A DNA stretch of 64,000 nt from Dehalococcoidia bacterium (GTDB lineage Bacteria > Chloroflexota > Dehalococcoidia > Plut-88900): positions 892,492 through 956,491 of the forward strand of contig CBDFLQ010000006.1 in the NCBI GenBank assembly GCA_965249275.1, given 5' to 3'. A program made the position numbers and the translations under genes. Shown here piece by piece: positions 28,532 to 56,922 of this stretch. Each line of letters starts with the position of its first letter. Within the stretch, counting starts at the first letter, position 1. The notes beneath the pieces are model-generated. The model was not told where the DNA came from, did not search any database, and saw only the letters and a program-made list of their open reading frames with translations.

Positions 28532-29920
28532 CTACCCCCTCGCCGCCAGCCTCACCATCAAATAAGCCATATCCCTGTCCCCCTTGATCGAATTGCACGC
28601 CGCGCAAAGCAACTGAAGGTTCTCCAGGTGGTCCGTCCCTCCCTTGGCCCGAGGCACCACGTGATCAATCGTCAGGTTGTGGATTGGGAACAGAATCTTG
28701 CACCCGGCACAGTTCCCCGCCTGCTGGCCGAACAGCACGTGCTTCTGCTTCCGGTACGGGATCGGAGCCTCGATATCCATGCGCCGAGGTATATCCGTCC
28801 GGGCCGTGACGTAGCCGTGGTGAAAGAGGCTGCCCATGGCCTGCTGCAACCGCATGTTCACCAGTTCGACCGCTTTCGGAGAGACGTCTATCCCCACCCA
28901 CTTCCTCCCCAACATCTCCGCCGCGACGCACGCGGTTGCACACCCGCAGAACGGGTCCAGAACCATGTCACCGGGATTAGAAGACGCCGAGATAATCCGT
29001 TCCAGCAGCGCAAGTGGCTTTTGAGTCGGGTAGCCAGTTCGCTCTTTTGCGTGGGCTTGGACAGGCTTGATGTCCGTCCACTGATCCTGCAAGGGAACGC
29101 CTGGCATTTCATCGAGATAGCGTTTATACCTAGGGACCGCTCCCGGCTTGCTCTGAACTATGCGACCCTCTTTGGCCAGTTTAGCCATCTGTTCTTGGCT
29201 ATACCTCCAGTATCGTATGACCCCAAGTAATTCATAGTGGGGATTTCCTTTAGCGTCACCACCTGGCCCTGTTAAATCGCCAAGTGTGTATCTTCTGCCC
29301 GTTTCCGGCTCTATGTGACGATAGAAGCGGTCTACATAGTCTTGGTCGTATTCCGTATAGATTGGGTTCCACGTCCAACTGTCTCCCTTGGAGTAGAAGA
29401 GTAGGGAGTCACGTATGCGCCCGTGCTGGCGTCGGCCTTGCTTGGTGTCGCTGTGGGCGCTACTCCGCTTCCAAGATATATCGCTGCGGAAGTTGCCTGC
29501 CCCGAATACCGAGTCCATCAACATCTTGAGATAGTGCCCCGCCGTCGGGTCGCAATGCAGGTAGATAGAGCCGGTGCCCTTCAGCACCCGCCGCATCTCA
29601 ACCAGCCGCACCGCCATCATACACAGGTAGGACTGCATCCCCTTCCCGTGCGTCAGCCCCGCCGCCTCTATCAGCTTGTACATCGCCGGTTGCTCGTCGG
29701 CAATCAACCCCATCCACGCAACATCCAACTCTGAAAGCGTCCACGTGTCCTTAAACGCCGCCCCTGCCGCCCGTGACCCGACCGGTGCGGCATAGTTCCG
29801 GTTGGAATTGAACGGCGGATCGAGATATATCAGGTCCACCGACTCGGAGTTCAACCCCCTCAAAATATCCAGGTTGTCCCCCGTCCAAATCGTCTTGTCT
29901 ACAAAATTAGCTTCAGCCAT
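28532..29920 (-). CDS. N4/N6 DNA methyltransferase fused to a C-terminal HNH nuclease
   Basis: DLIYLDPPF, YPTQKP, DPFCGC motifs; CAGC...DHVVPRAKGGTDH..NLQLLCAACN HNH motif. Confidence 0.92.
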   Translation of the reverse strand: MAEANFVDKTIWTGDNLDILRGLNSESVDLIYLDPPFNSNRNYAAPVGSRAAGAAFKDTWTLSELDVAWMGLIADEQPAMYKLIEAAGLTHGKGMQSYLCMMAVRLVEMRRVLKGTGSIYLHCDPTAGHYLKMLMDSVFGAGNFRSDISWKRSSAHSDTKQGRRQHGRIRDSLLFYSKGDSWTWNPIYTEYDQDYVDRFYRHIEPETGRRYTLGDLTGPGGDAKGNPHYELLGVIRYWRYSQEQMAKLAKEGRIVQSKPGAVPRYKRYLDEMPGVPLQDQWTDIKPVQAHAKERTGYPTQKPLALLERIISASSNPGDMVLDPFCGCATACVAAEMLGRKWVGIDVSPKAVELVNMRLQQAMGSLFHHGYVTARTDIPRRMDIEAPIPYRKQKHVLFGQQAGNCAGCKILFPIHNLTIDHVVPRAKGGTDHLENLQLLCAACNSIKGDRDMAYLMVRLAARG

Positions 29921-29966
29921 GCCGCTAGTGTAGATTAACTGTCAACTTCCCCTCCCCCTTGGTAAC

Positions 29967-30007
29967 GACATATCAGCCATGTTGCAGAGCAACATGGCTG
30001 ATATGTC
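29967..30007. repeat. Perfect 19-bp inverted repeat
   Basis: GACATATCAGCCATGTTGC-AGA-GCAACATGGCTGATATGTC. Confidence 0.9.
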
Positions 30008-30067
30008 AATAAAACAGGGCGGGGGGGGCGGGACTCAATATATCCCTGAGGGTGGTGAGACATACCT

Positions 30068-30117
30068 CCAAAAGTGACACGAACCCCTTGACCAAACTTG
30101 TACACTTGTACTATATT
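30068..30117 (+). promoter_or_regulatory. Repeated promoter (copy 1) with LexA-like box
   Basis: 29-nt identity with 53997-54025; TTGACC-N18-TATATT; GTAC-ACTT-GTAC at 30100-30111. Confidence 0.65.
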
Positions 30118-30306
30118 CACCTCCGATAGGCCAATCACTCACCCTAAACCCAAAGGAGGTACCAAAAACTAGGGAAGCCCACCCGACCCACCCGAGGACT
30201 CAACGCCCCAGCCCATCCCAACGGCCCTCGCGCAGACCCGCGGCACAAGCGAAAGTCGCCATCTCCTCATCCCCACCGGGTCCCGTGCCCCCTTCCCTGT
30301 CCCCCA

Positions 30307-30790
30307 GGCGATGGAAAGACGCCCTGGTTCGCTTATGTTCCATGTGAACCCCCTCTAAGACGCCCTCAGCCTCTTACAGGGAAACCCTCCCTCGGGAGGA
30401 ACACGCTCTTTCGAGCGGAATAGCGGTCGGATAGACCCGGCGCTGAGGTCCTCTCGGTACACCGTCCGCTTAATGAAGCCGGGAGCCGGTGGTCTACGCG
30501 CTCCTGGTCGCACCGGCAAACTCGGACACACTACGCCTGCAGAGGCCCGGCGTCGGACGCTGGACGAGCCTCCTTGCCGCCCTATAGCGGTGCAGCCAAC
30601 CCTCGGAGTCGGACTCGGACCTGCTGGCCCTGAAGGTCCCTGCCCATGTCCGGCGTATACAGGGCCACAGGCCGCAGCAGCGGCAGGCGGCGGTAGTCCG
30701 CCCCAGTCGGGCCGGCGTCCTTCCCCCAGCGCGTCGGAACACCCGAACCACAGGAACGGGGGCAGCGTCCAGCAAGCGTCTTCCATCGCC
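30307..30790 (+). ncRNA. Candidate large structured ncRNA 1 (about 484 nt)
   Basis: Ends pair (GGCGATGGAAAGACGC / GCGTCTTCCATCGCC); many nested helices; GAAA and UUCG-type loops; no credible ORF. Confidence 0.55.
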
Positions 30791-30981
30791 AACCCACCCC
30801 AAACAAACAGAACACACCGAAACCCCACCACCCATAACTGAATAACCCCCCTCCCCCGGCATAACGCCTTTGCGTAACTGTCATTCCCGAGAAATCAGAG
30901 TCCGGAAACGGTGTGAAGTGTGGGATGTTCCAGTTGTGACCAAACCCTGCGTGTGGTAGCATACTGCCCCGTCGCACGACC

Positions 30982-49029: not shown

Positions 49030-50184
49030 CTACACCACCGTCAGGTCCCGGCTGGTCTTCGACAATATCTCGCAGCCGGTGTCGGTCACAAGCACGTTGT
49101 CGATTATCCGGGCCCCGAGTCTCTCCTCCGGCAGAAACACCGGAGGCTCGATGGACAGCACCATGCCGCTCTGCAACGGCTCGTCGATACTGCCGTCCAT
49201 CTGAAACGGCTCCGACCACCTGGGCGGGAATCCGGGAGCTATTCCGTAGCCGGTGGTGTGCCACCGACCCTCCTCCATCCCCGCATCCCCGATGACCTTC
49301 TTCGCCGCCTCGTGAGGCACCGACGCCGGGACCCCCGCCCTGATCGCCCCGATGGTCGCGTCGCAGGCGTCCCGGACAACCTGGTAGACCTCTTTCATCC
49401 TGGCCGTCGGCTCCCCGATGCACATCACCCGACCGATAGTGCAGGTGTACCGACGATAGGCTGAACCGTATTCGTGGTGGACCAAGTCCCCATCCTGAAG
49501 CACCCTCTCCGATGGAAAGCCGTGGGAGTAGGGCGTCCGCTCTCCGCTCACGAAGTTCATCGGGCTGGAGGTGAACTCACCGCCGAGGGACATCATCGTG
49601 CGATGCATCTCGCCCACAACCTGGAACTCGGTCTTGCCTGCTGCCATGGTATCGAGGCACGTCTGGTGGACGGCGTCATTGATGTCGGATGCCTTGCGGA
49701 TGTACGCCAGCTCCGCAGGGGACTTAACGAACTTGAGCTCCTCGATCAGGCGGGTCGGTTCGGCTACCAGGGCATCGCCGAGAACATCCCTGAGCTGCAG
49801 ATAATCGTGAACGTTGAGATACGTATTCGGGACCTCAAGCCCTATCCTCCGGCTGAGATACCCCTTCTCCTCCAGTATTGACTTGAGGATGGGCACGGCA
49901 TGGTCGCCCGGGTCCCGGTCCCACCCCCGCACGTCCCCCGACAGCGACATTTCCTGTGCCTCGAAGACATCAGCGAAACGAGTCTGGAGTATCAGGTCGC
50001 TGGGCTCCAGGGTGAATAGCAGGGCCTGGAACTCCTGGTATCCCTTGATCCGGCTGCCGGCCAGGTAGTTGATGTTGACGGGGTTAGTCACTATGAGAAG
50101 GTCTATGCCGATCTTCTCCATGGCCGCCCGAGTCCTCTGCTGCCGGTCCTCGAATTCGGATATCTCGAAGTCCAGGTTTGTCAT
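49030..50184 (-). CDS. M24-fold hydrolase (creatinase/ectoine hydrolase-like)
   Basis: VKSPAEL, HTTGYGI, SIEP; canonical di-metal Asp ligands appear substituted. Confidence 0.8.
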   Translation of the reverse strand: MTNLDFEISEFEDRQQRTRAAMEKIGIDLLIVTNPVNINYLAGSRIKGYQEFQALLFTLEPSDLILQTRFADVFEAQEMSLSGDVRGWDRDPGDHAVPILKSILEEKGYLSRRIGLEVPNTYLNVHDYLQLRDVLGDALVAEPTRLIEELKFVKSPAELAYIRKASDINDAVHQTCLDTMAAGKTEFQVVGEMHRTMMSLGGEFTSSPMNFVSGERTPYSHGFPSERVLQDGDLVHHEYGSAYRRYTCTIGRVMCIGEPTARMKEVYQVVRDACDATIGAIRAGVPASVPHEAAKKVIGDAGMEEGRWHTTGYGIAPGFPPRWSEPFQMDGSIDEPLQSGMVLSIEPPVFLPEERLGARIIDNVLVTDTGCEILSKTSRDLTVV

Positions 50185-50218
50185 GGGTGACGCCTTTCTT
50201 ATTGGAAGACTGGCTGGA

Positions 50219-50569
50219 CTAGGTTTCGGGGGTGGGGGGTGCGCCGTCGGTGGGAGCGAACGCCTCGGTGAGGCTCGAGATAATGTCGTCCTCGCCGGCG
50301 CCGGCGAGGAGATCGACGTTGATAGCCTGAAGGGTCTCGGTGTGGACCCCGGCTCGGAGCCCGAACTCCAGGGACAACCGGGCCACCGACTCCGGGCCGT
50401 CCGCCTCGGCGATGATTACGAAGTCGTACCTGCCGAGAACCATGTACCGCGCCATAAGGCGGGCGCCGGGCACATCCACCTCCTGCGCGACGTCATTTAT
50501 AAGCTCGGGATTATCTATCAGCTTCCGCTGCCCGTCAGTCGTCAGAGTGGCCAGGAGAATGTAAAGCAT
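50219..50569 (-). CDS. GYD-domain protein
   Basis: YILLATLT..G, LGRYDFV, TETL. Confidence 0.85.
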   Translation of the reverse strand: MLYILLATLTTDGQRKLIDNPELINDVAQEVDVPGARLMARYMVLGRYDFVIIAEADGPESVARLSLEFGLRAGVHTETLQAINVDLLAGAGEDDIISSLTEAFAPTDGAPPTPET

Positions 50570-50649
50570 GGCGACCGCCGTTCTCTGAAATTCAGGCGCA
50601 TTCTAACACACACCCCCCCATCATCCCCCACCCCAATCGGGAATCCAGT

Positions 50650-50760
50650 GGGGCCGCTCACCCTGTCGTAGATCCGCTGAGGCGGGAGCCACTCGAAGGG
50701 TCGAGCGGGGCGGGGTCTTATCCCCTCTCCCTCGATGGGAGAGGGCTAGGGTGAGGGTGA
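50650..50760. repeat. REP-like repeat copy C plus a CCCTCTCCC...GGGAGAGGG-type palindrome
   Basis: GGGGCCGCTCACCCTGTCGTAGATCCGCTGAGGCGGGAGCCACTCGAAGGGTCGAGCGGGG then CCCCTCTCCCTCGATGGGAGAGGGCTAGGGTGAGGG. Confidence 0.8.
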
Positions 50761-50854
50761 TCCCCTCCTCGGTGCGGGGTGTCCCAATGCCCGTTATGCC
50801 GTACAATCAACCCCCACCACCCTTGTCCCGGTCACCAAAGGACCCACACACCAG

Positions 50855-53761
50855 ATGCCCCGTCAAACCGAGCCAAACGCCAACAACGCCTTGGGCATTC
50901 TGTTGCAGGCCATGTTCTCCCGCAGCAGCATCTATTACGAGAACACTCGGGTCATTGTCGACCATCCCGGCCGACAGCCCGACATCCTCATCACATCCCC
51001 CGGCCGCTCGCCCGTTGTAGTCGAGGCAGAATACATGCCTGCCGCCACCGTGGAACCCGAGGCAAAGGCTCGCCTCGGACTCGACGTCACGGTCGATTCT
51101 CGCCCCATTGAGGCCGCTATTGCCCTTCGTTACCCAGGGGAGCTTGCCGATGAGTCCGACTTGGCGGCTACCATAAAGTCCTCAACCCTCTCCTACTGCA
51201 TATTCACCCAGGAGCGTAAAGACGTCAAGCGCTTCCCAGAATCCGGTTGGCTGGACGGCTCCGTTGAAGACCTCGCCGACCTGATTCGCCTCGTTTCCGT
51301 CCCTCAATGGGCCGTCGATGCGGCTACGAAGATACTGAGAAAGGGCATCGATAACGCTGCGAAGATACTGGACGAGACGGCCACTTCGCGCCCGGAGACT
51401 GTCAAAGACATTGCCGCACGGCTGGGCATGACCGATGTCACCCAGACCCGACGCATGGCTTGCGCCATCATGGCCAACGCCATGGTCTTCCACGAGCGCA
51501 TCGCCAAGATGCACGCGGGTATCAAGACCCTGGAGAAGGTCTGCGGAGAAGATGTTGCCAACCCTCAGCACGAGGTCTTGGCCTCATGGGACGCCATTCT
51601 CAAAATTAACTACTGGCCCATTTTCGCTATCGCTAGGGACATTTTAAGCGAACTGCAGTCCAGCGACGCTGCCCGGATTCTACGGCGGCTAAGGGACACC
51701 GCCCAGGAAATCAACTCCTCCGGTGTGGAGAACGCTCACGACCTCACGGGCCGCATCTTCCAGAACCTCATTGCGGACCGGAAGTACCTGGCCACCTTCT
51801 ACACCCTTCCCGCCTCCGCTGCCCTCCTTGCAAGGCTGGCCGTCGCCAAGATGGAGGGTGTCGACTGGTCCGATAAGGAAACCATAGGCAAGCTCCGTAT
51901 TGCCGACTTCGCCTGCGGCACCGGCGCCCTCTTGTCAGCAGTCTATGAGCAGATCGCTGCCCGACACGAACGGACAGGGGGCAACCCCACCGAGCTTCAC
52001 AAGGTGATGATGGAAGAGATGTTTTACGGCTGCGACGTCATGCCCTCCGCAGTCCACATCACCTGCTCCACGCTCTCGGGATTGGAGCCTGCCCAAGGTT
52101 TCGGAAAGTCCCGCCTATACGCCCTCCAGTATGGACGTCAGAAGGATGGCAGTGTGAAGATCGGCTCCCTGGAATTCCTCCAGACCTCCGCACAGTGGAC
52201 CCTCTTCAACACCAGCGACCCCGCCACCCAGATAGCCAGCACTGGCGAGCAGACCACACCCCAGGCCATCGCCAACATCCCCGACGAAGCGTATGACATA
52301 GTGATAATGAATCCTCCGTTTACGAGACCAGGCTCCGATTGGGAGGGTGAAGAGAGGGCTGAGGACTATATCAAACACTTTAGAGGCCTGAGTACCGCAT
52401 GGGTCACTCAGAAGGATATGGCGAAACGCCTTAGTCGTTACACAGGAGATACGTGTTACCACGGCTATGCCGGCATAGCCTCAGCTTTTGCAGCCCTTGC
52501 CCACAAGAAGCTCAAGCCCGGCGGAGCTTTAGCTCTAGTGCTCCCCCTGTCAGTAGCGTCGGGCCTGTCTTGGGAGGGTTTTCGCGAGATGATTACCCGC
52601 GACTACACAGGGCTAAATGTGCTAACAATAGCTGCTGCGGGCAATGATGACATCTCCTTTTCAGCAGACACAGGCATGGCAGAATGTTTGGTCATTGCCC
52701 GCAAGCTCAGGCCAGACGAAACACCCCAAGACCGCATGTATTTCACGTCGTTCCTGCGAAGGCCCCAGGGCTTCCCCCACGCAAGCTCCCTAGCTACCAA
52801 CCTATTGGTTGGCAGCAGAGTCAGGCGAATTGAGGACGGACCCTATGGCGGCACGCCCTTGATGGTTGGGGAAGAGTTGGCTGGTGAGACAATAACCGCG
52901 CCCCGCGTTGCGGGTGGGGCAGGCTGGGGTGCAGTGCGCCTAGCCGACTATTCTCTGGCGCAAACTTCTTATGCCCTCTCGCAGTCTAAGTTGTGGCTCC
53001 CAGGGATAGCATCAGCCTTGGAGTTGAAAGTCGCACCCCTAAGCGATGTTGGTAGACGCGGCTGGCACGACATAAACATAGCTGGTTCTGCTGGCCCCTT
53101 CACTAAGGTGCCGTCAAGTCTGACATCTACTTATCCCTCTCTCTGGGGCCACAATGCCAAACGGGAAACACAGATGGTCTGTCTGTCAGACTCGCAATTG
53201 CTCGTCAAGCCAGGAATGGAAGATAGAGCCGCCAAAGCGTGGGCGACCGCAAGCCGTGCTCACTTGAACCGCGACTTCCGCTTTAATTCGCAGCCGCTGG
53301 GTGCCGCATTCACTGAGCAAACCAGCATCGGTGGTCGCGCCTGGCCAAATATCGTATTCGACAACCAACGGTTTGATTACACCTTCATGATTTGGGCTAA
53401 CAACACCTTGGGACTACTATGCTTCTGGTGGCATTCCAATCGCCAAGTTGCGGGCCGAGGCACCACTACCGTCAGTGCAATTGACTCCCTCCCCACCCTC
53501 GACCTCCGCACCCTCACCGACGCCCAACTCGCCAAGGCAAAAGAAATCTTCGACGAGTTCCGTGACAAGGAACTCCACCCCGCCTACCTCGCAGACGCAG
53601 ACCCCAACCGTGCCTTGCTGGACCGCCGCGTCATCCGCGACCTCCTCGGCTTTGACGAGGACACCTACCTCGGAGTCCGACGCCTGGCCGCCAAGTGGTG
53701 CGCCGAGCCCTCCGTCCACGGCGGCAAGAAACGGCCCGTATGGGCCAAGTTCGTCACATAA
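50855..53761 (+). CDS. Type IIG-like restriction-modification enzyme (nuclease-like + N6-MTase + specificity region)
   Basis: N-terminal PD..(E)AE nuclease-like motif, ATFYT, DFACGTG (motif I), NPPF (motif IV). Confidence 0.82.
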   Translation: MPRQTEPNANNALGILLQAMFSRSSIYYENTRVIVDHPGRQPDILITSPGRSPVVVEAEYMPAATVEPEAKARLGLDVTVDSRPIEAAIALRYPGELADESDLAATIKSSTLSYCIFTQERKDVKRFPESGWLDGSVEDLADLIRLVSVPQWAVDAATKILRKGIDNAAKILDETATSRPETVKDIAARLGMTDVTQTRRMACAIMANAMVFHERIAKMHAGIKTLEKVCGEDVANPQHEVLASWDAILKINYWPIFAIARDILSELQSSDAARILRRLRDTAQEINSSGVENAHDLTGRIFQNLIADRKYLATFYTLPASAALLARLAVAKMEGVDWSDKETIGKLRIADFACGTGALLSAVYEQIAARHERTGGNPTELHKVMMEEMFYGCDVMPSAVHITCSTLSGLEPAQGFGKSRLYALQYGRQKDGSVKIGSLEFLQTSAQWTLFNTSDPATQIASTGEQTTPQAIANIPDEAYDIVIMNPPFTRPGSDWEGEERAEDYIKHFRGLSTAWVTQKDMAKRLSRYTGDTCYHGYAGIASAFAALAHKKLKPGGALALVLPLSVASGLSWEGFREMITRDYTGLNVLTIAAAGNDDISFSADTGMAECLVIARKLRPDETPQDRMYFTSFLRRPQGFPHASSLATNLLVGSRVRRIEDGPYGGTPLMVGEELAGETITAPRVAGGAGWGAVRLADYSLAQTSYALSQSKLWLPGIASALELKVAPLSDVGRRGWHDINIAGSAGPFTKVPSSLTSTYPSLWGHNAKRETQMVCLSDSQLLVKPGMEDRAAKAWATASRAHLNRDFRFNSQPLGAAFTEQTSIGGRAWPNIVFDNQRFDYTFMIWANNTLGLLCFWWHSNRQVAGRGTTTVSAIDSLPTLDLRTLTDAQLAKAKEIFDEFRDKELHPAYLADADPNRALLDRRVIRDLLGFDEDTYLGVRRLAAKWCAEPSVHGGKKRPVWAKFVT

Positions 53762-53844
53762 CCCTCCCCCCATCCACCCCCTCCATCATTCCGGCCGCCG
53801 AGAGCCAGAATCCATCCCCATCCCCTTCTACCCAGTACTGAACT

Positions 53845-53884
53845 AGAGGCAGAGGTTGGCGCTTCTGCGCCAACCTCTGCCTCT
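53845..53884. repeat. Perfect 18-bp inverted repeat
   Basis: AGAGGCAGAGGTTGGCGC-TTCT-GCGCCAACCTCTGCCTCT. Confidence 0.9.
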
Positions 53885-53996
53885 GTTCTTATCTCCCCCT
53901 CTCCCTTGACGGCCCTAAGGGTCGAAGATGCGCCTATGGCGTGAGAGGGGGATTAAGGGGGTGAAGGTTCCCCGGTGGGGCTGGGGCGGTGTCTCC

Positions 53997-54046
53997 CCAA
54001 AAGTGACACGAACCCCTTGACCAAAGCAAAACATCTGTACTATATT
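53997..54046 (+). promoter_or_regulatory. Repeated promoter (copy 2) with LexA-like box
   Basis: CCAAAAGTGACACGAACCCCTTGACCAAA identical to 30068-30096; TTGACC-N18-TATATT; AAAC-ATCT-GTAC. Confidence 0.65.
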
Positions 54047-54397
54047 ACCCCCCCAAGCCCGACACCCCACGTCGGCCCTAATAAGGAAAGGACAAGGAGT
54101 CCCATGAGTCGCACAAGCCTCCATAGGCCCCGTCGTCCCCGAGCGGCATGCCACCGCCCGGCCACCGGCACGCGCCTACTCCCCAATCCCTTTCCACCCA
54201 ACCTCCCACATCCCAACCCCCACTACAAGCGCTGCCCCAAGGCCCATCGCCTCCGCCTCCGCAGCGATCAATCACTGTCCCTCCCGGTCCACGTGACCGG
54301 CCATGGAAGGTCCCCGGACAAAAACCTGCATACCCTTTCCAAGGGCCACTGCCAAGTGCGCGCCCCACTCACCCGGCGCATCCGTTTCGCCTCCTCA

Positions 54398-54778
54398 GGC
54401 GACGCCCCGGAGCACAGCGTCATGTCGCTCCCTTGGGCCATAGCGCCCCCTTGGGCCTTTGTGCCCTTCCCGGATTCCCCCGCCGCAGACCTTGCCGGCG
54501 AATCCGAACAGTCGGATGAGCGCCGACTCAAAACCAACGCACCATTTAAGGATTCCACCGTCGTCACCATCGGAGAACTCCGGTCTACGAACGCCGGTCA
54601 CGGGTCCACGCTCCCATCCCTTAGGATGGTCGAGCACTTCTGGTGGACGGGACTGCCCCACACCGAGAATTTCTCGGGTCTCGTCCACATCCCCTCAGAA
54701 GTTAGGGGCTGTCGCAAAGCCGGCGCTGATGTCGAACATCCGCTGTCGCGGAAAACGCCCATCGGTACAGGCGTCGCC
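54398..54778 (+). ncRNA. Candidate large structured ncRNA 2 (about 381 nt)
   Basis: Ends pair (GGCGACGCC / GGCGTCGCC); nested helices throughout; no credible ORF. Confidence 0.5.
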
Positions 54779-54988
54779 GTCTTCCTGCGCAACCGTCCGG
54801 GACCTTCCATCCCATCCACCTCCCCGGCCCCCTCAATCCAGGGAAAAGCGGACTTTTCCCGCAAAACAATCAGACCTCACGCCTGGGTCCGCGTATCAAT
54901 CAAAACTCTCCCATTCATACCCACCAAAGGAACCGCCCAACAGCCCATACCCTCAACCCCTCCCTCCACAACTAAATAACCGCCGCCC

Positions 54989-56248
54989 CTAGCTCCGCGT
55001 ATACACCGCCTCCCCTGCTCGGCGGGTGATGCGGCCGGCCCGCACCTCGGCAGTCACCAGCGCCAGGTCGGTCACGTACTGCTCGACGATGTCGTGGTGC
55101 GAGTAGTCGAAGAAGAGGTGGATGCCCTCTGGGTCAACAATGCGGTTGCTGTTCCACCCCCGGTCGGACATGCCATCGTGGACGGCATAGATGTCGAGAT
55201 TCTTCGACCCGAAAGCTGCCAGGTAGGCATGAGGCGTCCCGAACACCTCGAGCCCCTCGATGGAGTTGATCCCGTCAATGAACCGGTCCCGCGTCCCCAG
55301 AATCCTCTCCACGATGCGTAGGTATCCCTCCTCCCCCAGGTAGTTCATAACCGCCCACGCCGACGCCACCCCACCCCCGGACCTGGACCCCGTGTTGTTG
55401 CGAGTCGAGTAGAGCCCCGAGGGCCACTCGTCGAAGGTGAACCGCTGGTACTTCTCCAACGTATCGTCCCGCAGCAGCAACCCCGAGACGCCTTTGTTGG
55501 CATACCCCAGCTTGTGCACGTCCACCGAGATGGAGGTGACGCCACTCACTCCAAAGTCATAGTCCGGAATGTCATATCCGAGCTTCCTTGCAAAGGGCAG
55601 TACGAACCCACCGTGGCACGCGTCGACATGGCACCAGAGGCCCTGCTCCTCCGCCAAGGCCCCGATCTCGGTTATCGCATCGTTGGCCCCGTACGGGTAG
55701 GAGGGAGCCGATCCGGCGACCATGATGGTGTTGTCGTTAATGGCCCGGGCCATTGCATCCACGTCCGCCCGGTAGTCGATGCTGTCCGGCACCCGGACGG
55801 TCTTGATGCCGAGAATATGTGTCGCTTTGTCGAAGGCCGGGTGGGCAGCCCGCGGCACCAAGATCTCAGGCTCGGTGGCCGAGGGCCTGTGGTCTCGGGC
55901 CCAGGCCTTGGCCGCCTTCACCGCCACCACGATACTCTCCGTGCCGCCGGATGTGACGCTCCCGCCGGCGCCCTCAGGCGCGGTCAGCATCTCCAGCAGG
56001 GCGCCGATCAGCTCCCGCTCGTACCTGACTAGGCTGGGGAAGAGGTCGGGGGCGAAGAGGGCGTTGTGGTTGATGTACATCTGATAGGCATCGTTGGCCA
56101 CCTTGACCACGTCCTCCCCGCCAAAGTAGCTGCCCCCCTTGAACTGCCGAGGCTCATACCAGGGCTTGTCCTCCTCGTGCGCCGACTCCATCTCGGCGCG
56201 GACGTCGGGCCAGGGTCGGGAGCTGGGGGGAAATTGGGGTGGGGTCAT
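54989..56248 (-). CDS. PLP-dependent decarboxylase/sphingosine-1-phosphate lyase-like protein
   Basis: TSGGTES, AHPAFDKA, HVDACHGG, SVDVHK, GSRSGG; ATG start at 56248. Confidence 0.88.
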   Translation of the reverse strand: MTPPQFPPSSRPWPDVRAEMESAHEEDKPWYEPRQFKGGSYFGGEDVVKVANDAYQMYINHNALFAPDLFPSLVRYERELIGALLEMLTAPEGAGGSVTSGGTESIVVAVKAAKAWARDHRPSATEPEILVPRAAHPAFDKATHILGIKTVRVPDSIDYRADVDAMARAINDNTIMVAGSAPSYPYGANDAITEIGALAEEQGLWCHVDACHGGFVLPFARKLGYDIPDYDFGVSGVTSISVDVHKLGYANKGVSGLLLRDDTLEKYQRFTFDEWPSGLYSTRNNTGSRSGGGVASAWAVMNYLGEEGYLRIVERILGTRDRFIDGINSIEGLEVFGTPHAYLAAFGSKNLDIYAVHDGMSDRGWNSNRIVDPEGIHLFFDYSHHDIVEQYVTDLALVTAEVRAGRITRRAGEAVYTRS

Positions 56249-56922
56249 GGTGGGGCCTCCTGAAACGCTACACTTGGAATTCCTGATATTGGGATAGTCA
56301 ATCCTATCCTGGAGGTGAAGTAAGGGAGGGAGTGGTGGAGGATGGAGGGATTCGGATTTAGCTACGAAACATATATATTTTAGTGTGCATTCCCACAATC
56401 CTCACCACACTGATAGGCTAATGGCAACCTTCGCCGATCATTGCCTCGCAAGGTATGGTATCACGCCTTCACCTATGAATATGATCGGAGTGACTGTATC
56501 CAGCGTTCTGCACGCATCTGAGTGCAGGACGCGGTTGCGCAGGGGCCAATTGAAAGTTCGAGGCTAACTAGACGGGTCTAAGTGTGCTGTACTGCAAACG
56601 TTCCGGTGGGAAATCTCAATTTAAGAAGCCGATCAGGTAAATCCGAGTCGTGACCAGTTCTAGCGATGGCCCCGCCGAAACCCATGGCTCCGCTTTCTCC
56701 ATGCGGTCTCCGAAGCAAAACTCGTGGAACATATCTCTTGCCTATCAAATTTGCTGCTTCATAGTTCTTGAATGCAAGTGAGGTTGCCTGACGGCCATGT
56801 TATCTAGAGGTAATCGAGATTGATCCACTACCGATCTAGCTTGTGCTCTTACGCGATGGGCATCTCGGCACAATGTCGCAGGCGCCGCTACTTCAGCAAT
56901 CAGCCAGGTTGGACAAGACATC

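What the first reader, a model, noticed from the sequence alone, without database searches (positions are those of the whole stretch)
53845..54778. Cassette 2: same architecture (hairpin, same promoter, ~380-nt structured RNA) right after a type IIG R-M gene
Seen: a perfect 18-bp inverted repeat (53845-84), the same promoter block, a C-rich spacer, then 54398-54778 closed by GGCGACGCC/GGCGTCGCC. Internal helices: 54471-77/54500-06, 54510-15/54523-28, 54614-19/54624-29, 54636-42/54696-702 enclosing 54643-49/54682-88 and 54663-77. Both cassette RNAs start CAGGCGA, end TCGCC and share an internal GGTCTACG, yet the bodies are otherwise divergent. Inference: two diverged members of one RNA family (or non-autonomous element family) recurring next to restriction-modification genes; this is the best candidate for a new system in the window.
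Basis: partly seen in the sequence, partly recalled or inferred. Interest (0 to 1): 0.85.

Follow-up and report, generated by a model that had tools for sequence, protein, structure and literature searches.

The report
Multi-copy remnant of a phage terminase gene
The supposed new RNA gene is one of about fifty promoter-driven, cut-down copies of a phage DNA-packaging (terminase) gene in this genome; its reading frame is kept open although the encoded amino acids drift freely, and nothing yet explains that.

Summary
The described sequence features exist, but the reading changes. Cassette 2 (about 53999-54981) is one of about 53 cassettes in this 2.9-Mb genome. The promoter block occurs 29 times. 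One copy drives an intact small-ORF plus large-terminase (TerL) pair on another contig. Structure prediction and Foldseek confirm that gene as a TerL.

The frame 54104-54979 matches TerL residues 198-364, in frame (45% identity, E 2e-54). So the body is a cut-down terminase nuclease-domain gene, not a de novo RNA gene.

In this subfamily 37 of 39 copies from nine genomes keep the frame open. A neutral simulation expects 0.7, and 23 of 27 indels are multiples of three. Yet dN/dS is about 0.8 in all three frames, against 0.21 for intact terL, and the product is predicted unfolded.

Predicted RNA pairs covary no more than on the antisense strand or in intact terL. The only derived structure is a 16-17-nt inverted repeat (54303-19/54795-810).

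Linkage to restriction-modification genes is modest: 4 of 11 loci, 3 independent. Function is unknown. The scan reached the same terminase-derived reading before on another genome (note e1-4378031).

The parts
53767..53998 (+). Separate REP-like repeat module upstream of the cassette. It holds the 19-bp hairpin and a second long hairpin.
   Evidence: blastn against the genome finds about 20 copies in both orientations, often without a cassette.
53844..53885 (+). Perfect hairpin followed by a T-rich tail. Terminator-like, 83 nt after the stop of the type IIG-like gene.
   Evidence: 19 pairs, 12 G-C; sequence.
53999..54050 (+). Conserved promoter block: upstream 18 nt, -35 TTGACC (54017-22), -10 TATATT (54041-46).
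   Evidence: Identical 27-mer at 30070. 29 copies with at most 4 mismatches in the genome: 27 before cassettes, 1 before the intact small-ORF/terL pair, 1 before a terS-like ORF. Consensus scan.
54094..54106 (+). Shine-Dalgarno-like AAGGAG and the ATG start (54104-54106), conserved in the type B subfamily.
   Evidence: Alignment of copies. All 12 type B copies in this genome start MSR... from this ATG.
54104..54979 (+). ORF of 291 codons plus TAA. The frame is kept open by selection, but the amino-acid sequence is unconstrained.
   Evidence: open frame, in-frame indels. (dN/dS about 0.8-0.9 in every frame; no codon-position pattern). (AlphaFold pLDDT 50, no secondary structure). (low protein-likeness).
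54215..54811 (+). Segment homologous, in frame, to residues 198-364 of the intact TerL-like protein (end of the ATPase linker plus the first half of the RNase-H-like nuclease domain). It carries 30-aa and 7-aa insertions.
   Evidence: BLASTP 45% identity, E 2e-54. tblastn 52.9% over 174 aa, E 5e-45. DNA alignment with intact terL.
54303..54319 (+). 5' arm of the long-range inverted repeat (ATGGAAGGTCCCCGGAC).
   Evidence: Only GGAAGG/CCTTCC (6 bp) in the intact terL of contig C7, longer in some intact terL genes of the genus.
54795..54810 (+). 3' arm of the inverted repeat (GTCCGGGACCTTCCAT). Homology to terL ends here.
54548..54709 (+). 162-nt (54-codon) module (DSTVV...SEVRGC) that is tandemly duplicated 2-3 times, in frame, in copies of related genomes.
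54398..54406 (+).
   Evidence: Present. Pairs locally in the MFE and consensus folds, not with 54770-78.
54770..54778 (+). These are codons G-V-A, inherited from terL.
54969..54981 (+). 3' terminal family motif CAACTAAATAACC (consensus CAACTGAATAACC). It holds the ORF's stop codon and lies 8 nt from the stop of the convergent decarboxylase gene.
   Evidence: 15 matches in the genome, 13 of them downstream of a 3' arm. Sequence.
50855..53761 (+). Neighbour: type IIG-like restriction-modification gene (968 aa).
   Evidence: Pfam Eco57I E 1e-5. PADLOC MTase_II and REase_MTase_IIG, weak. Absent at this site in G002 and G007.
54989..56398 (-). Neighbour: convergent PLP-dependent decarboxylase gene, conserved in all 9 genomes of the genus.
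   Evidence: Pfam Pyridoxal_deC E 3e-20..

Best explanation
Cassette 2 is a truncated, fast-drifting paralogue of a phage-type large-terminase gene (terL), sitting behind a copy of the promoter that also drives the intact small-ORF/terL pair in this genome.

Shown:
- It has the same promoter block as the intact pair.
- It matches TerL residues 198-364 in frame.
- It belongs to a genus-restricted family of about 53 copies in three subfamilies.
- In its own subfamily (type B) the SD, the ATG and an open frame are maintained against mutation, while the amino acids evolve as in non-coding DNA.
- A 12-17-bp inverted repeat brackets the terL-derived part in all subfamilies.

Inferred:
- The unit is transcribed from its near-consensus sigma-70-type promoter together with the terminase operon.
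- In type B it is also translated. What selection protects is ribosome passage or the bulk properties of a basic, proline-rich, disordered product, not a folded nuclease. A nonsense codon in a long C-rich transcript would expose it to decay or premature termination.
- The inverted repeat acts either in DNA or as a long-range RNA helix. The data do not say which strand or which molecule.

It is not a dedicated partner of restriction-modification genes.
For: Identity:
- tblastn and BLASTP hits to the intact 462-aa gene.
- That gene is a TerL: PHROG large-terminase families at E 2.6e-6, 3.8e-6 and 2.5e-4; database homologues carry Pfam Terminase_6C; AlphaFold pLDDT 86.7; the best PDB matches are almost all large terminases (HK97 E 6.7e-18; D6E TM 0.57-0.69).
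- The gene sits beside an SPP1-type portal gene in 3 of 4 other genera examined, and each of the other 8 genomes of the genus has one such portal gene.
- The promoter is shared by all units.

Frame kept open:
- 12 of 12 copies in this genome and 37 of 39 across nine genomes have no stop, against 1-12 stops in the other frames.
- A neutral simulation on the family tree gives 0.7 +/- 1.4 open copies, maximum 7, in 300 runs.
- 23.9 new stops are expected on terminal branches alone; none is seen.
- 23 of 27 indel events are multiples of three.
- Third-position C is 0.48-0.50, as in real genes.

No amino-acid constraint:
- dN/dS is 0.88/0.90/0.79 and 0.82/0.84/0.77 in the three frames, against 0.21 in frame for intact terL.
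- Orthologue divergence by codon position is 0.057/0.078/0.082, against 0.02/0.018/0.14 in the neighbouring gene.
- AlphaFold pLDDT is 50.3 with no secondary structure.

Function and expression:
- Subfamily A lacks the ATG and its frames are broken, as expected if the ATG matters in type B.
- Pieces of the family occur in RNA-library contigs of two studies.
Against: - A frame kept open with no amino-acid constraint has no established mechanism; the explanation given is inference.
- The tree length (3.58) may be inflated by recombination and misalignment, although the terminal-branch and indel counts point the same way.
- The majority subfamily (A; 40 of 53 copies) has no start codon. It still keeps the promoter and the inverted repeat, so whatever maintains the family as a whole cannot be a protein.
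- The product scores like a shuffled sequence in the protein atlas.
- Expression is not shown. The RNA data are contigs without strand or ends, and their depth ratio to the neighbouring gene could be copy number or DNA carry-over.
- The first 37 residues and the leader have no detectable source in the terS-like gene.
- How copies spread is unknown. No terminal inverted repeats or target duplications were seen at the one occupied/empty comparison made.
Confidence: 0.6

Rival explanations
1. A large structured non-coding RNA. The sense transcript folds into a roughly 500-nt domain closed by the inverted repeat, perhaps cut out by RNase III, and acts as RNA. The open frame would be incidental or would serve only to carry ribosomes.
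For: - Fold z -5.2, against -2.0 for the same region of intact terL.
- The closing repeat is longer than in the intact terL of contig C7 and is kept in all subfamilies, including those without a frame.
- 15 of 95 consensus pairs show double changes, against 4.8 +/- 1.4 in shuffles and 2-6 in slid controls.
- The promoter is far better conserved than the body.
Against: - No Rfam family matches.
- The same procedure gives 13 double-change pairs on the antisense strand and 12-21 in intact terL genes, so the covariation is not diagnostic.
- The covariation term is only -2.1 of -105.8 kcal/mol.
- The inverted repeat pairs better on the antisense strand in 31 of 53 copies, on the sense strand in 10, and equally in 12.
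- Several internal hairpins are inherited from terL codons.
- In-frame indels and stop avoidance need translation, which would unwind such a fold.
Confidence: 0.2
2. A functionless, decaying repeat. Duplicated fragments of the terminase operon were scattered by recombination among repeat-rich intergenic hot spots. The promoter, the repeat and the open frame persist by youth and by gene conversion among copies and from the intact terL.
For: - dN/dS is near 1 and the product is predicted unfolded.
- Subfamily A frames are broken.
- A segment (54480-54731) is 89-91% identical to intact terL while its neighbours are about 70%, suggesting conversion.
- Clustered differences between orthologues also suggest conversion.
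- The site is a variable hot spot.
- There is no orientation bias toward downstream genes: 28 co-oriented, 25 convergent.
Against: - Conversion alone does not remove stops.
- Only 0.7 of 39 copies are expected to stay open, against 37 seen.
- 23 of 27 indels are in frame.
- Orthologous copies are retained in at least 3 species.
- The 27-mer promoter is nearly invariant in 29 copies while bodies differ by 15-40%.
Confidence: 0.15
3. A DNA-level role tied to the terminase: either dispersed recognition or packaging-initiation sites for the TerS/TerL machinery, or a reservoir of partial terL copies used for gene conversion into the intact gene (as with silent pilS or vls cassettes, recalled from general knowledge).
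For: - The best-conserved part of every unit is the promoter-proximal block shared with the terminase operon.
- There are signs of conversion between cassettes and intact terL.
- Silent-cassette systems also keep frames open while sequences vary (recalled).
- The inverted repeat is equally good on both strands.
Against: - Each unit has its own strong promoter, SD and ATG, unlike silent cassettes.
- No pac site is known here.
- The promoter block is not found upstream of the terminase genes in the neighbouring genus examined.
- Diversifying a terminase nuclease domain has no obvious benefit.
Confidence: 0.05

Closest known systems
Phage large terminase subunit (TerL), nuclease domain (Pfam Terminase_6C; solved examples HK97 6z6d, D6E 5oe8)
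   Same: The cassette frame is homologous, in frame, to residues 198-364 of a bona fide TerL encoded in the same genome. It keeps the DLAGE and DSTVV motifs.
   Different: There is no ATPase domain and only the first half of the nuclease fold. No Pfam or PHROG hit. dN/dS is about 0.8 against 0.21. It is predicted unfolded. There are about 50 copies per genome instead of 1-4.
MITEs and other non-autonomous derivatives of longer elements (recalled category)
   Same: It is a short, multi-copy, intergenic internal-deletion derivative of a longer coding unit that is also present in the genome. It contains an inverted repeat and carries an outward promoter.
   Different: The parent is a terminase operon, not a transposase gene. 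The inverted repeat is internal, not terminal. No target duplication or terminal repeats were found at the site compared. The IS481-family element nearby is a separate insertion in a REP hairpin.
Silent partial-gene cassettes used for gene conversion (Neisseria pilS, Borrelia vls; recalled)
   Same: There are many partial copies of one expressed gene. Frames stay open while sequences vary, and there are signs of conversion with the intact gene.
   Different: Each copy has a strong promoter, SD and ATG. The copies are dispersed rather than arrayed. The parent gene is not a surface antigen.
Large bacterial structured ncRNAs (OLE, GOLLD, ROOL, HEARO/omega RNA; recalled, all in Rfam)
   Same: It is a promoter-driven unit of 0.5-0.9 kb, with a long-range closing helix and a strongly negative folding z-score.
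   Different: No Rfam match. It is derived from a coding sequence. Its covariation is no better than the controls. A translated frame is maintained.
Terminase-related genes of phage satellites (PICI/SaPI TerS variants, packaging-interference proteins; recalled)
   Same: They are terminase-derived genes outside a complete phage, sometimes near defence genes.
   Different: Those are intact, folded proteins present in single copies. No PADLOC family matches here.

Membership tests
Any Rfam RNA family | Covariance-model score at or above the gathering threshold | tested here: not met
   0 matches in the whole window at gathering threshold. Only chance-level microRNA-type hits to the hairpin at E-value threshold.
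Conserved structured ncRNA (generic) | Covariation of base pairs above what unstructured controls give | tested here: not met
   15 double-change pairs on the sense strand, against 13 on the antisense strand and 12-21 in intact terL coding sequence.
Conserved structured ncRNA (generic) | No conserved reading frame | tested here: not met
   The frame is open in 37 of 39 type B copies, and 23 of 27 indels are in frame.
Conserved structured ncRNA (generic) | A defined transcript with mapped ends | tested here: inconclusive
   Only RNA-library contigs without strand or ends were available. Pieces of the family are present.
Large terminase (TerL) | N-terminal ATPase domain with Walker A/B motifs | tested here: not met
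   The cassette aligns only to TerL residues 198-364. The ATPase part has just 2 full copies in the genome.
Large terminase (TerL) | Complete RNase-H-like nuclease fold | tested here: not met
   Homology ends at the 3' repeat arm. AlphaFold pLDDT 50.3, no secondary structure. No Pfam or PHROG hit.
Large terminase (TerL) | Sequence descent from a TerL gene | tested here: met
   45% identity, E 2e-54, to the in-genome TerL, which is itself confirmed by fold.
Protein-coding gene under purifying selection | Frame-specific dN/dS well below 1 | tested here: not met
   0.82/0.84/0.77 in the three frames, against 0.21 in frame for intact terL. Variable columns by codon position are 99/104/103.
Protein-coding gene under purifying selection | Start signals and an open frame maintained | tested here: met
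   SD plus ATG conserved. Stop avoidance and in-frame indels.
MITE / non-autonomous transposon | Terminal inverted repeats and target-site duplication at the element ends | tested here: not met
   None seen at the occupied (G003) versus empty (G008, G007) site. The family's inverted repeat is internal. Only one locus was compared.
MITE / non-autonomous transposon | Autonomous partner encoding a transposase with matching ends | tested here: not met
   The longer relatives are small-ORF/terL pairs. The adjacent IS481-family element has different ends.
Defence-system component | Match to a known defence protein family, or consistent linkage to defence genes | tested here: inconclusive
   No PADLOC hit. 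4 of 11 methylase-type loci lie within about 1 kb of a cassette against about 0.6 expected, and two of the four are one duplication.

The most novel reading that the evidence does not exclude
The roughly 50 cassettes per genome would be a domesticated, co-regulated satellite set of the phage-derived packaging module. They would switch on with the terminase promoter and act through their transcripts or their sequence-free translated products, for example as decoys or regulators of terminase, or as markers of packaging or recombination sites. That would make them a new class of element in which selection preserves translation itself rather than the protein.
Probability: 0.2. Interest if true: 0.8.

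Novelty: new variant of a known kind. Interest (0 to 1): 0.55.

Why it matters
The finding removes a false lead. This is not a new RNA system attached to restriction-modification genes. What replaces it is still odd. A phage terminase gene has spawned about 50 promoter-bearing remnants per genome in one genus of Dehalococcoidia (class label from protein names and earlier notes). One subfamily shows strong selection for an open frame with no selection on the amino acids. If that holds in expression data, it is a clean natural case of selection on translation itself, and possibly a link between a domesticated packaging module and dispersed genomic elements. It also warns that folding z-scores and raw covariation counts can make decayed coding sequence look like structured RNA. 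Three literature searches found no description of such cassettes.

Tried and rejected
- Rfam, whole window and local permissive scan: nothing.
- Pfam, PHROG, PADLOC and NCBIfam on the cassette ORF or the small ORF: nothing. PDB sequence search with TerL: nothing useful.
- Derivation of the cassette start from the terS-like gene: no similarity found.
- Strand-specific G-U asymmetry as evidence for a sense RNA: rejected. The same bias appears when the antisense strand is folded, and the repeat pairs slightly better antisense. My first genome-wide repeat scan was too loose, giving 622 mostly false hits, and was redone.
- Cassettes as mobile promoters for downstream genes: rejected (28 co-oriented, 25 convergent).
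- IS481-mediated spread: rejected. That element is a separate insertion in a REP hairpin 26 nt upstream of one cassette, and it is absent at the same site in G003.
- A GTGACAC/GTGTCAC terminal inverted repeat: seen at 2-3 of 13 ends only, so dropped.
- Portal and capsid Pfam families in the window's own genome: not found. The genome is 87% complete, and one terL copy abuts a contig end.
- RNA-library contigs: pieces of the family are covered, with gaps at 53882-54063 and 54428-54518. They give no strand, ends or level, so neither expression nor its absence can be claimed.
- A clean empty site for cassette 2 alone was not found. Relatives either have the cassette or differ over the whole hot spot.
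- Literature: three searches gave nothing relevant (listings and abstract starts only).

Full report
**What is at the coordinates.** The stop of a type IIG-like restriction-modification gene lies at 53761 (Pfam Eco57I; PADLOC). After it comes a perfect hairpin, 53844-53885, with 19 pairs and a T-rich tail, which is terminator-like. The hairpin lies inside a 230-nt repeat (53767-53998) that occurs about 20 times in the genome in both orientations, often without any cassette. A promoter block follows at 53999-54050. Its 27-mer is identical at 30070, with none in shuffles, and it reads TTGACC-18-TATATT. Next come AAGGAG and an ATG at 54104, then an open frame of 291 codons ending at TAA 54977-54979. 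That stop lies inside a family end motif, 8 nt from the stop of a convergent PLP-decarboxylase gene. The real closing helix is ATGGAAGGTCCCCGGAC (54303-19) with GTCCGGGACCTTCCAT (54795-810).

**It is a multi-copy family.** The promoter 27-mer occurs 29 times in the 2.9-Mb genome at up to 4 mismatches. Two main subfamilies follow it. Type A has the leader AAGGAGGAACCACAACCCAGGGGG and no ATG; cassette 1 at 30070 is of this type. Type B is cassette 2's type, with 12 copies. All carry ATGGAA(G)...(C)TTCCAT 300-570 nt apart. A stricter scan counts 53 cassettes: 36 type A and 10 type B with a promoter, 4 type A without one, and 3 others. Related DNA is found in 8 of 8 other genomes of the genus and in 0 of 32 genomes of other genera of the class. 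Type A is abundant in only one clade of the genus. Gene callers have predicted 503 related proteins in public data, all unnamed.

**The turning point.** One promoter copy (contig C7:110676) is followed by a 137-aa ORF and a 462-aa ORF, and the C-terminal half of the larger ORF contains the cassette's protein sequence. tblastn with that half hits the window cassette (52.9% over 174 aa, E 5e-45) and the other type B copies, plus some type A and a third type. The N-terminal half has only two copies. BLASTP aligns cassette residues 38-236 with residues 198-364 of the long protein (45% identity, E 2e-54).

The long protein is a large terminase on four grounds:
- Three PHROG terminase families match it.
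- Homologues carry Pfam Terminase_6C.
- Its AlphaFold model is confident (pLDDT 86.7, pTM 0.80).
- Its best PDB matches are nearly all large terminases: HK97, D6E, Sf6, T4 and G20c.

In 3 of 4 other genera examined it sits next to an SPP1-type portal gene. Each of the other 8 genomes of the genus has one such portal gene. The terL N-terminal domain is found in 32 of 41 genomes of the class, mostly once, and 1-4 times within the genus. Cassette 1's body does not align with either cassette 2 or terL, so its descent rests on the shared promoter, leader type and repeat.

**Coding or not.** All 12 type B copies in this genome keep the frame open for 246 to more than 330 codons from the conserved ATG, and their lengths differ by multiples of three. 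Across nine genomes, 37 of 39 copies have no stop in this frame, against 1-12 stops in the other frames; the two exceptions carry a frameshift. A neutral simulation along the family tree (length 3.58) leaves 0.7 +/- 1.4 copies open, with a maximum of 7 in 300 runs. On terminal branches alone, 23.9 new stops are expected and none is seen, and 23 of 27 indel events are multiples of three. Third positions are C-rich, as in real genes.

There is nevertheless no amino-acid constraint:
- dN/dS is 0.88/0.90/0.79 and 0.82/0.84/0.77 in the three frames. The intact terL region gives 0.21 in frame and 1.2/1.7 out of frame.
- Between orthologous copies in G005 and G002, the cassette diverges equally at all codon positions (0.057/0.078/0.082). 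The neighbouring gene shows 0.02/0.018/0.14.
- AlphaFold gives pLDDT 50.3 and no secondary structure with a 63-sequence alignment.
- The protein atlas scores the product like a shuffled sequence.

Type A copies lack the ATG and have shifted, broken frames. My reading is that type B is translated, and that selection protects passage of ribosomes or bulk properties of a basic, proline-rich product (28 R, 39 P of 291), not a fold. This step is inference. The tree length may be inflated by recombination.

**RNA structure.** The domain folds with z -5.2 (sense) and -4.3 (antisense), against -2.0 for the same part of intact terL. Most of that gain is the closing repeat. On 16 single-module type B copies, RNAalifold gives 95 pairs with a covariation term of only -2.1 kcal/mol. 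Fifteen pairs show double changes, against 4.8 +/- 1.4 in shuffles. The identical procedure gives 13 such pairs on the antisense strand and 12-21 in five intact terL genes, so these counts do not show a conserved RNA fold. The repeat pairs better antisense in 31 of 53 cassettes, better sense in 10, and equally in 12. In the intact terL of contig C7 the repeat is only GGAAGG/CCTTCC, but some intact terL genes of the genus have about 12 bp. It is therefore elaborated in the cassettes rather than unique to them. Whether it acts in DNA or in RNA is open.

**Context.** The same cassette is present in G005 with the R-M gene and in G002 without it. G007 has neither, and four other genomes carry different inserts at this site, so it is a variable hot spot. 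Eleven methylase-type loci were found, and four lie within about 1 kb of a cassette, against about 0.6 expected from the share of the genome near cassettes. Two of the four are one duplicated MTase-HNH-plus-cassette block. Downstream genes are co-oriented with the cassette in 28 cases and convergent in 25, so the cassettes do not serve as promoters for their neighbours. At a second locus, G003 has the cassette and G008 and G007 have none. No target duplication or terminal repeats are visible there. An IS481-family element sits 26 nt upstream in this genome only and is a separate insertion in a REP hairpin. How copies spread remains unknown.

**Expression and literature.** Four RNA libraries from two studies contain contigs covering parts of the cassette family. 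They carry no strand or end information, and their depth ratios could reflect copy number or DNA carry-over. Three literature searches (listings and abstract starts only) found no description of such cassettes.

**Earlier notes of this scan.** Notes on this genome described the family as a transposon-borne structured RNA without a protein gene, spread by an IS481-like mechanism. My results contradict both the "no frame" claim and the IS481 claim. A note on another genome (e1-4378031) reached the same terminase-derived, open-frame-with-drifting-residues reading that I reached independently.

**Verdict.** The RNA-system interpretation is replaced by a terminase-derived, promoter-driven gene-remnant family, with an unexplained selection for an open frame.

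Noticed in passing
L059:2308-4118 (G000:C7:110807-112617); L078-L081: A small-ORF/terL module is found in 32 of 41 genomes of the class, mostly in single copy, and is followed by an SPP1-type portal gene in 3 of 4 other genera examined. It may be a widespread prophage remnant or a gene-transfer-agent-like module. In this genome one terL pair lies next to rpmH-rnpA-yidC-jag, with no portal.
   Followed up: partly
L082:4479-5830 (G000:C7:459478-460829): An IS481-family insertion sequence (394-aa DDE transposase, 19-bp perfect terminal repeats) is present in 8 nearly identical copies. Here it is inserted in a REP hairpin 26 nt upstream of a cassette promoter. It is absent at the same site in G003.
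   Followed up: partly
window 53767-53998: A REP-like module with two hairpins has about 20 copies in both orientations. A related motif (…GGGAGAGGGCTAGGGTGAGGGTGATCC…) lies just upstream of the promoter in about 10 of 29 cassettes.
   Followed up: partly
window 28532-30800 and G000:C6:413093-415757: The MTase-HNH gene plus its divergent type A cassette is a duplicated block (69% aa identity, 78-88% nt identity). A terS-like ORF lies nearby at C6:411258-411617. HNH genes beside terminase genes are known from phages (recalled), so this neighbourhood may be ancestral phage synteny rather than defence linkage.
   Followed up: partly
window 50571-54989: The interval between the gene at 50002-50571 and the decarboxylase gene is a variable hot spot. 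It holds about 130 nt in G007, and 2.3-3 kb of unrelated inserts in G001, G004 and G006.
   Followed up: partly
window 54431-54466; G000:C5:168-169 kb copy: An 18-nt (6-codon) tandem repeat lies inside the frame, with 2 units here and about 7 in another copy (…AIVP/AIMP…).
   Followed up: no
L045, L037, L033 and other loci: The 162-nt module corresponding to window 54548-54709 is tandemly repeated 2-3 times, always in frame, in many copies of the more distant clade of the genus.
   Followed up: partly
window 54848-54885, minus strand: Two terminator-like hairpins for the convergent decarboxylase gene lie inside the cassette's tail. The last 170 nt of the 'cassette' may therefore be that gene's 3' region.
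   Followed up: no
L078:10059-10077: A 3-mismatch relative of the promoter block occurs in a genome of another genus, downstream of its portal gene and not upstream of its terminase genes.
   Followed up: no
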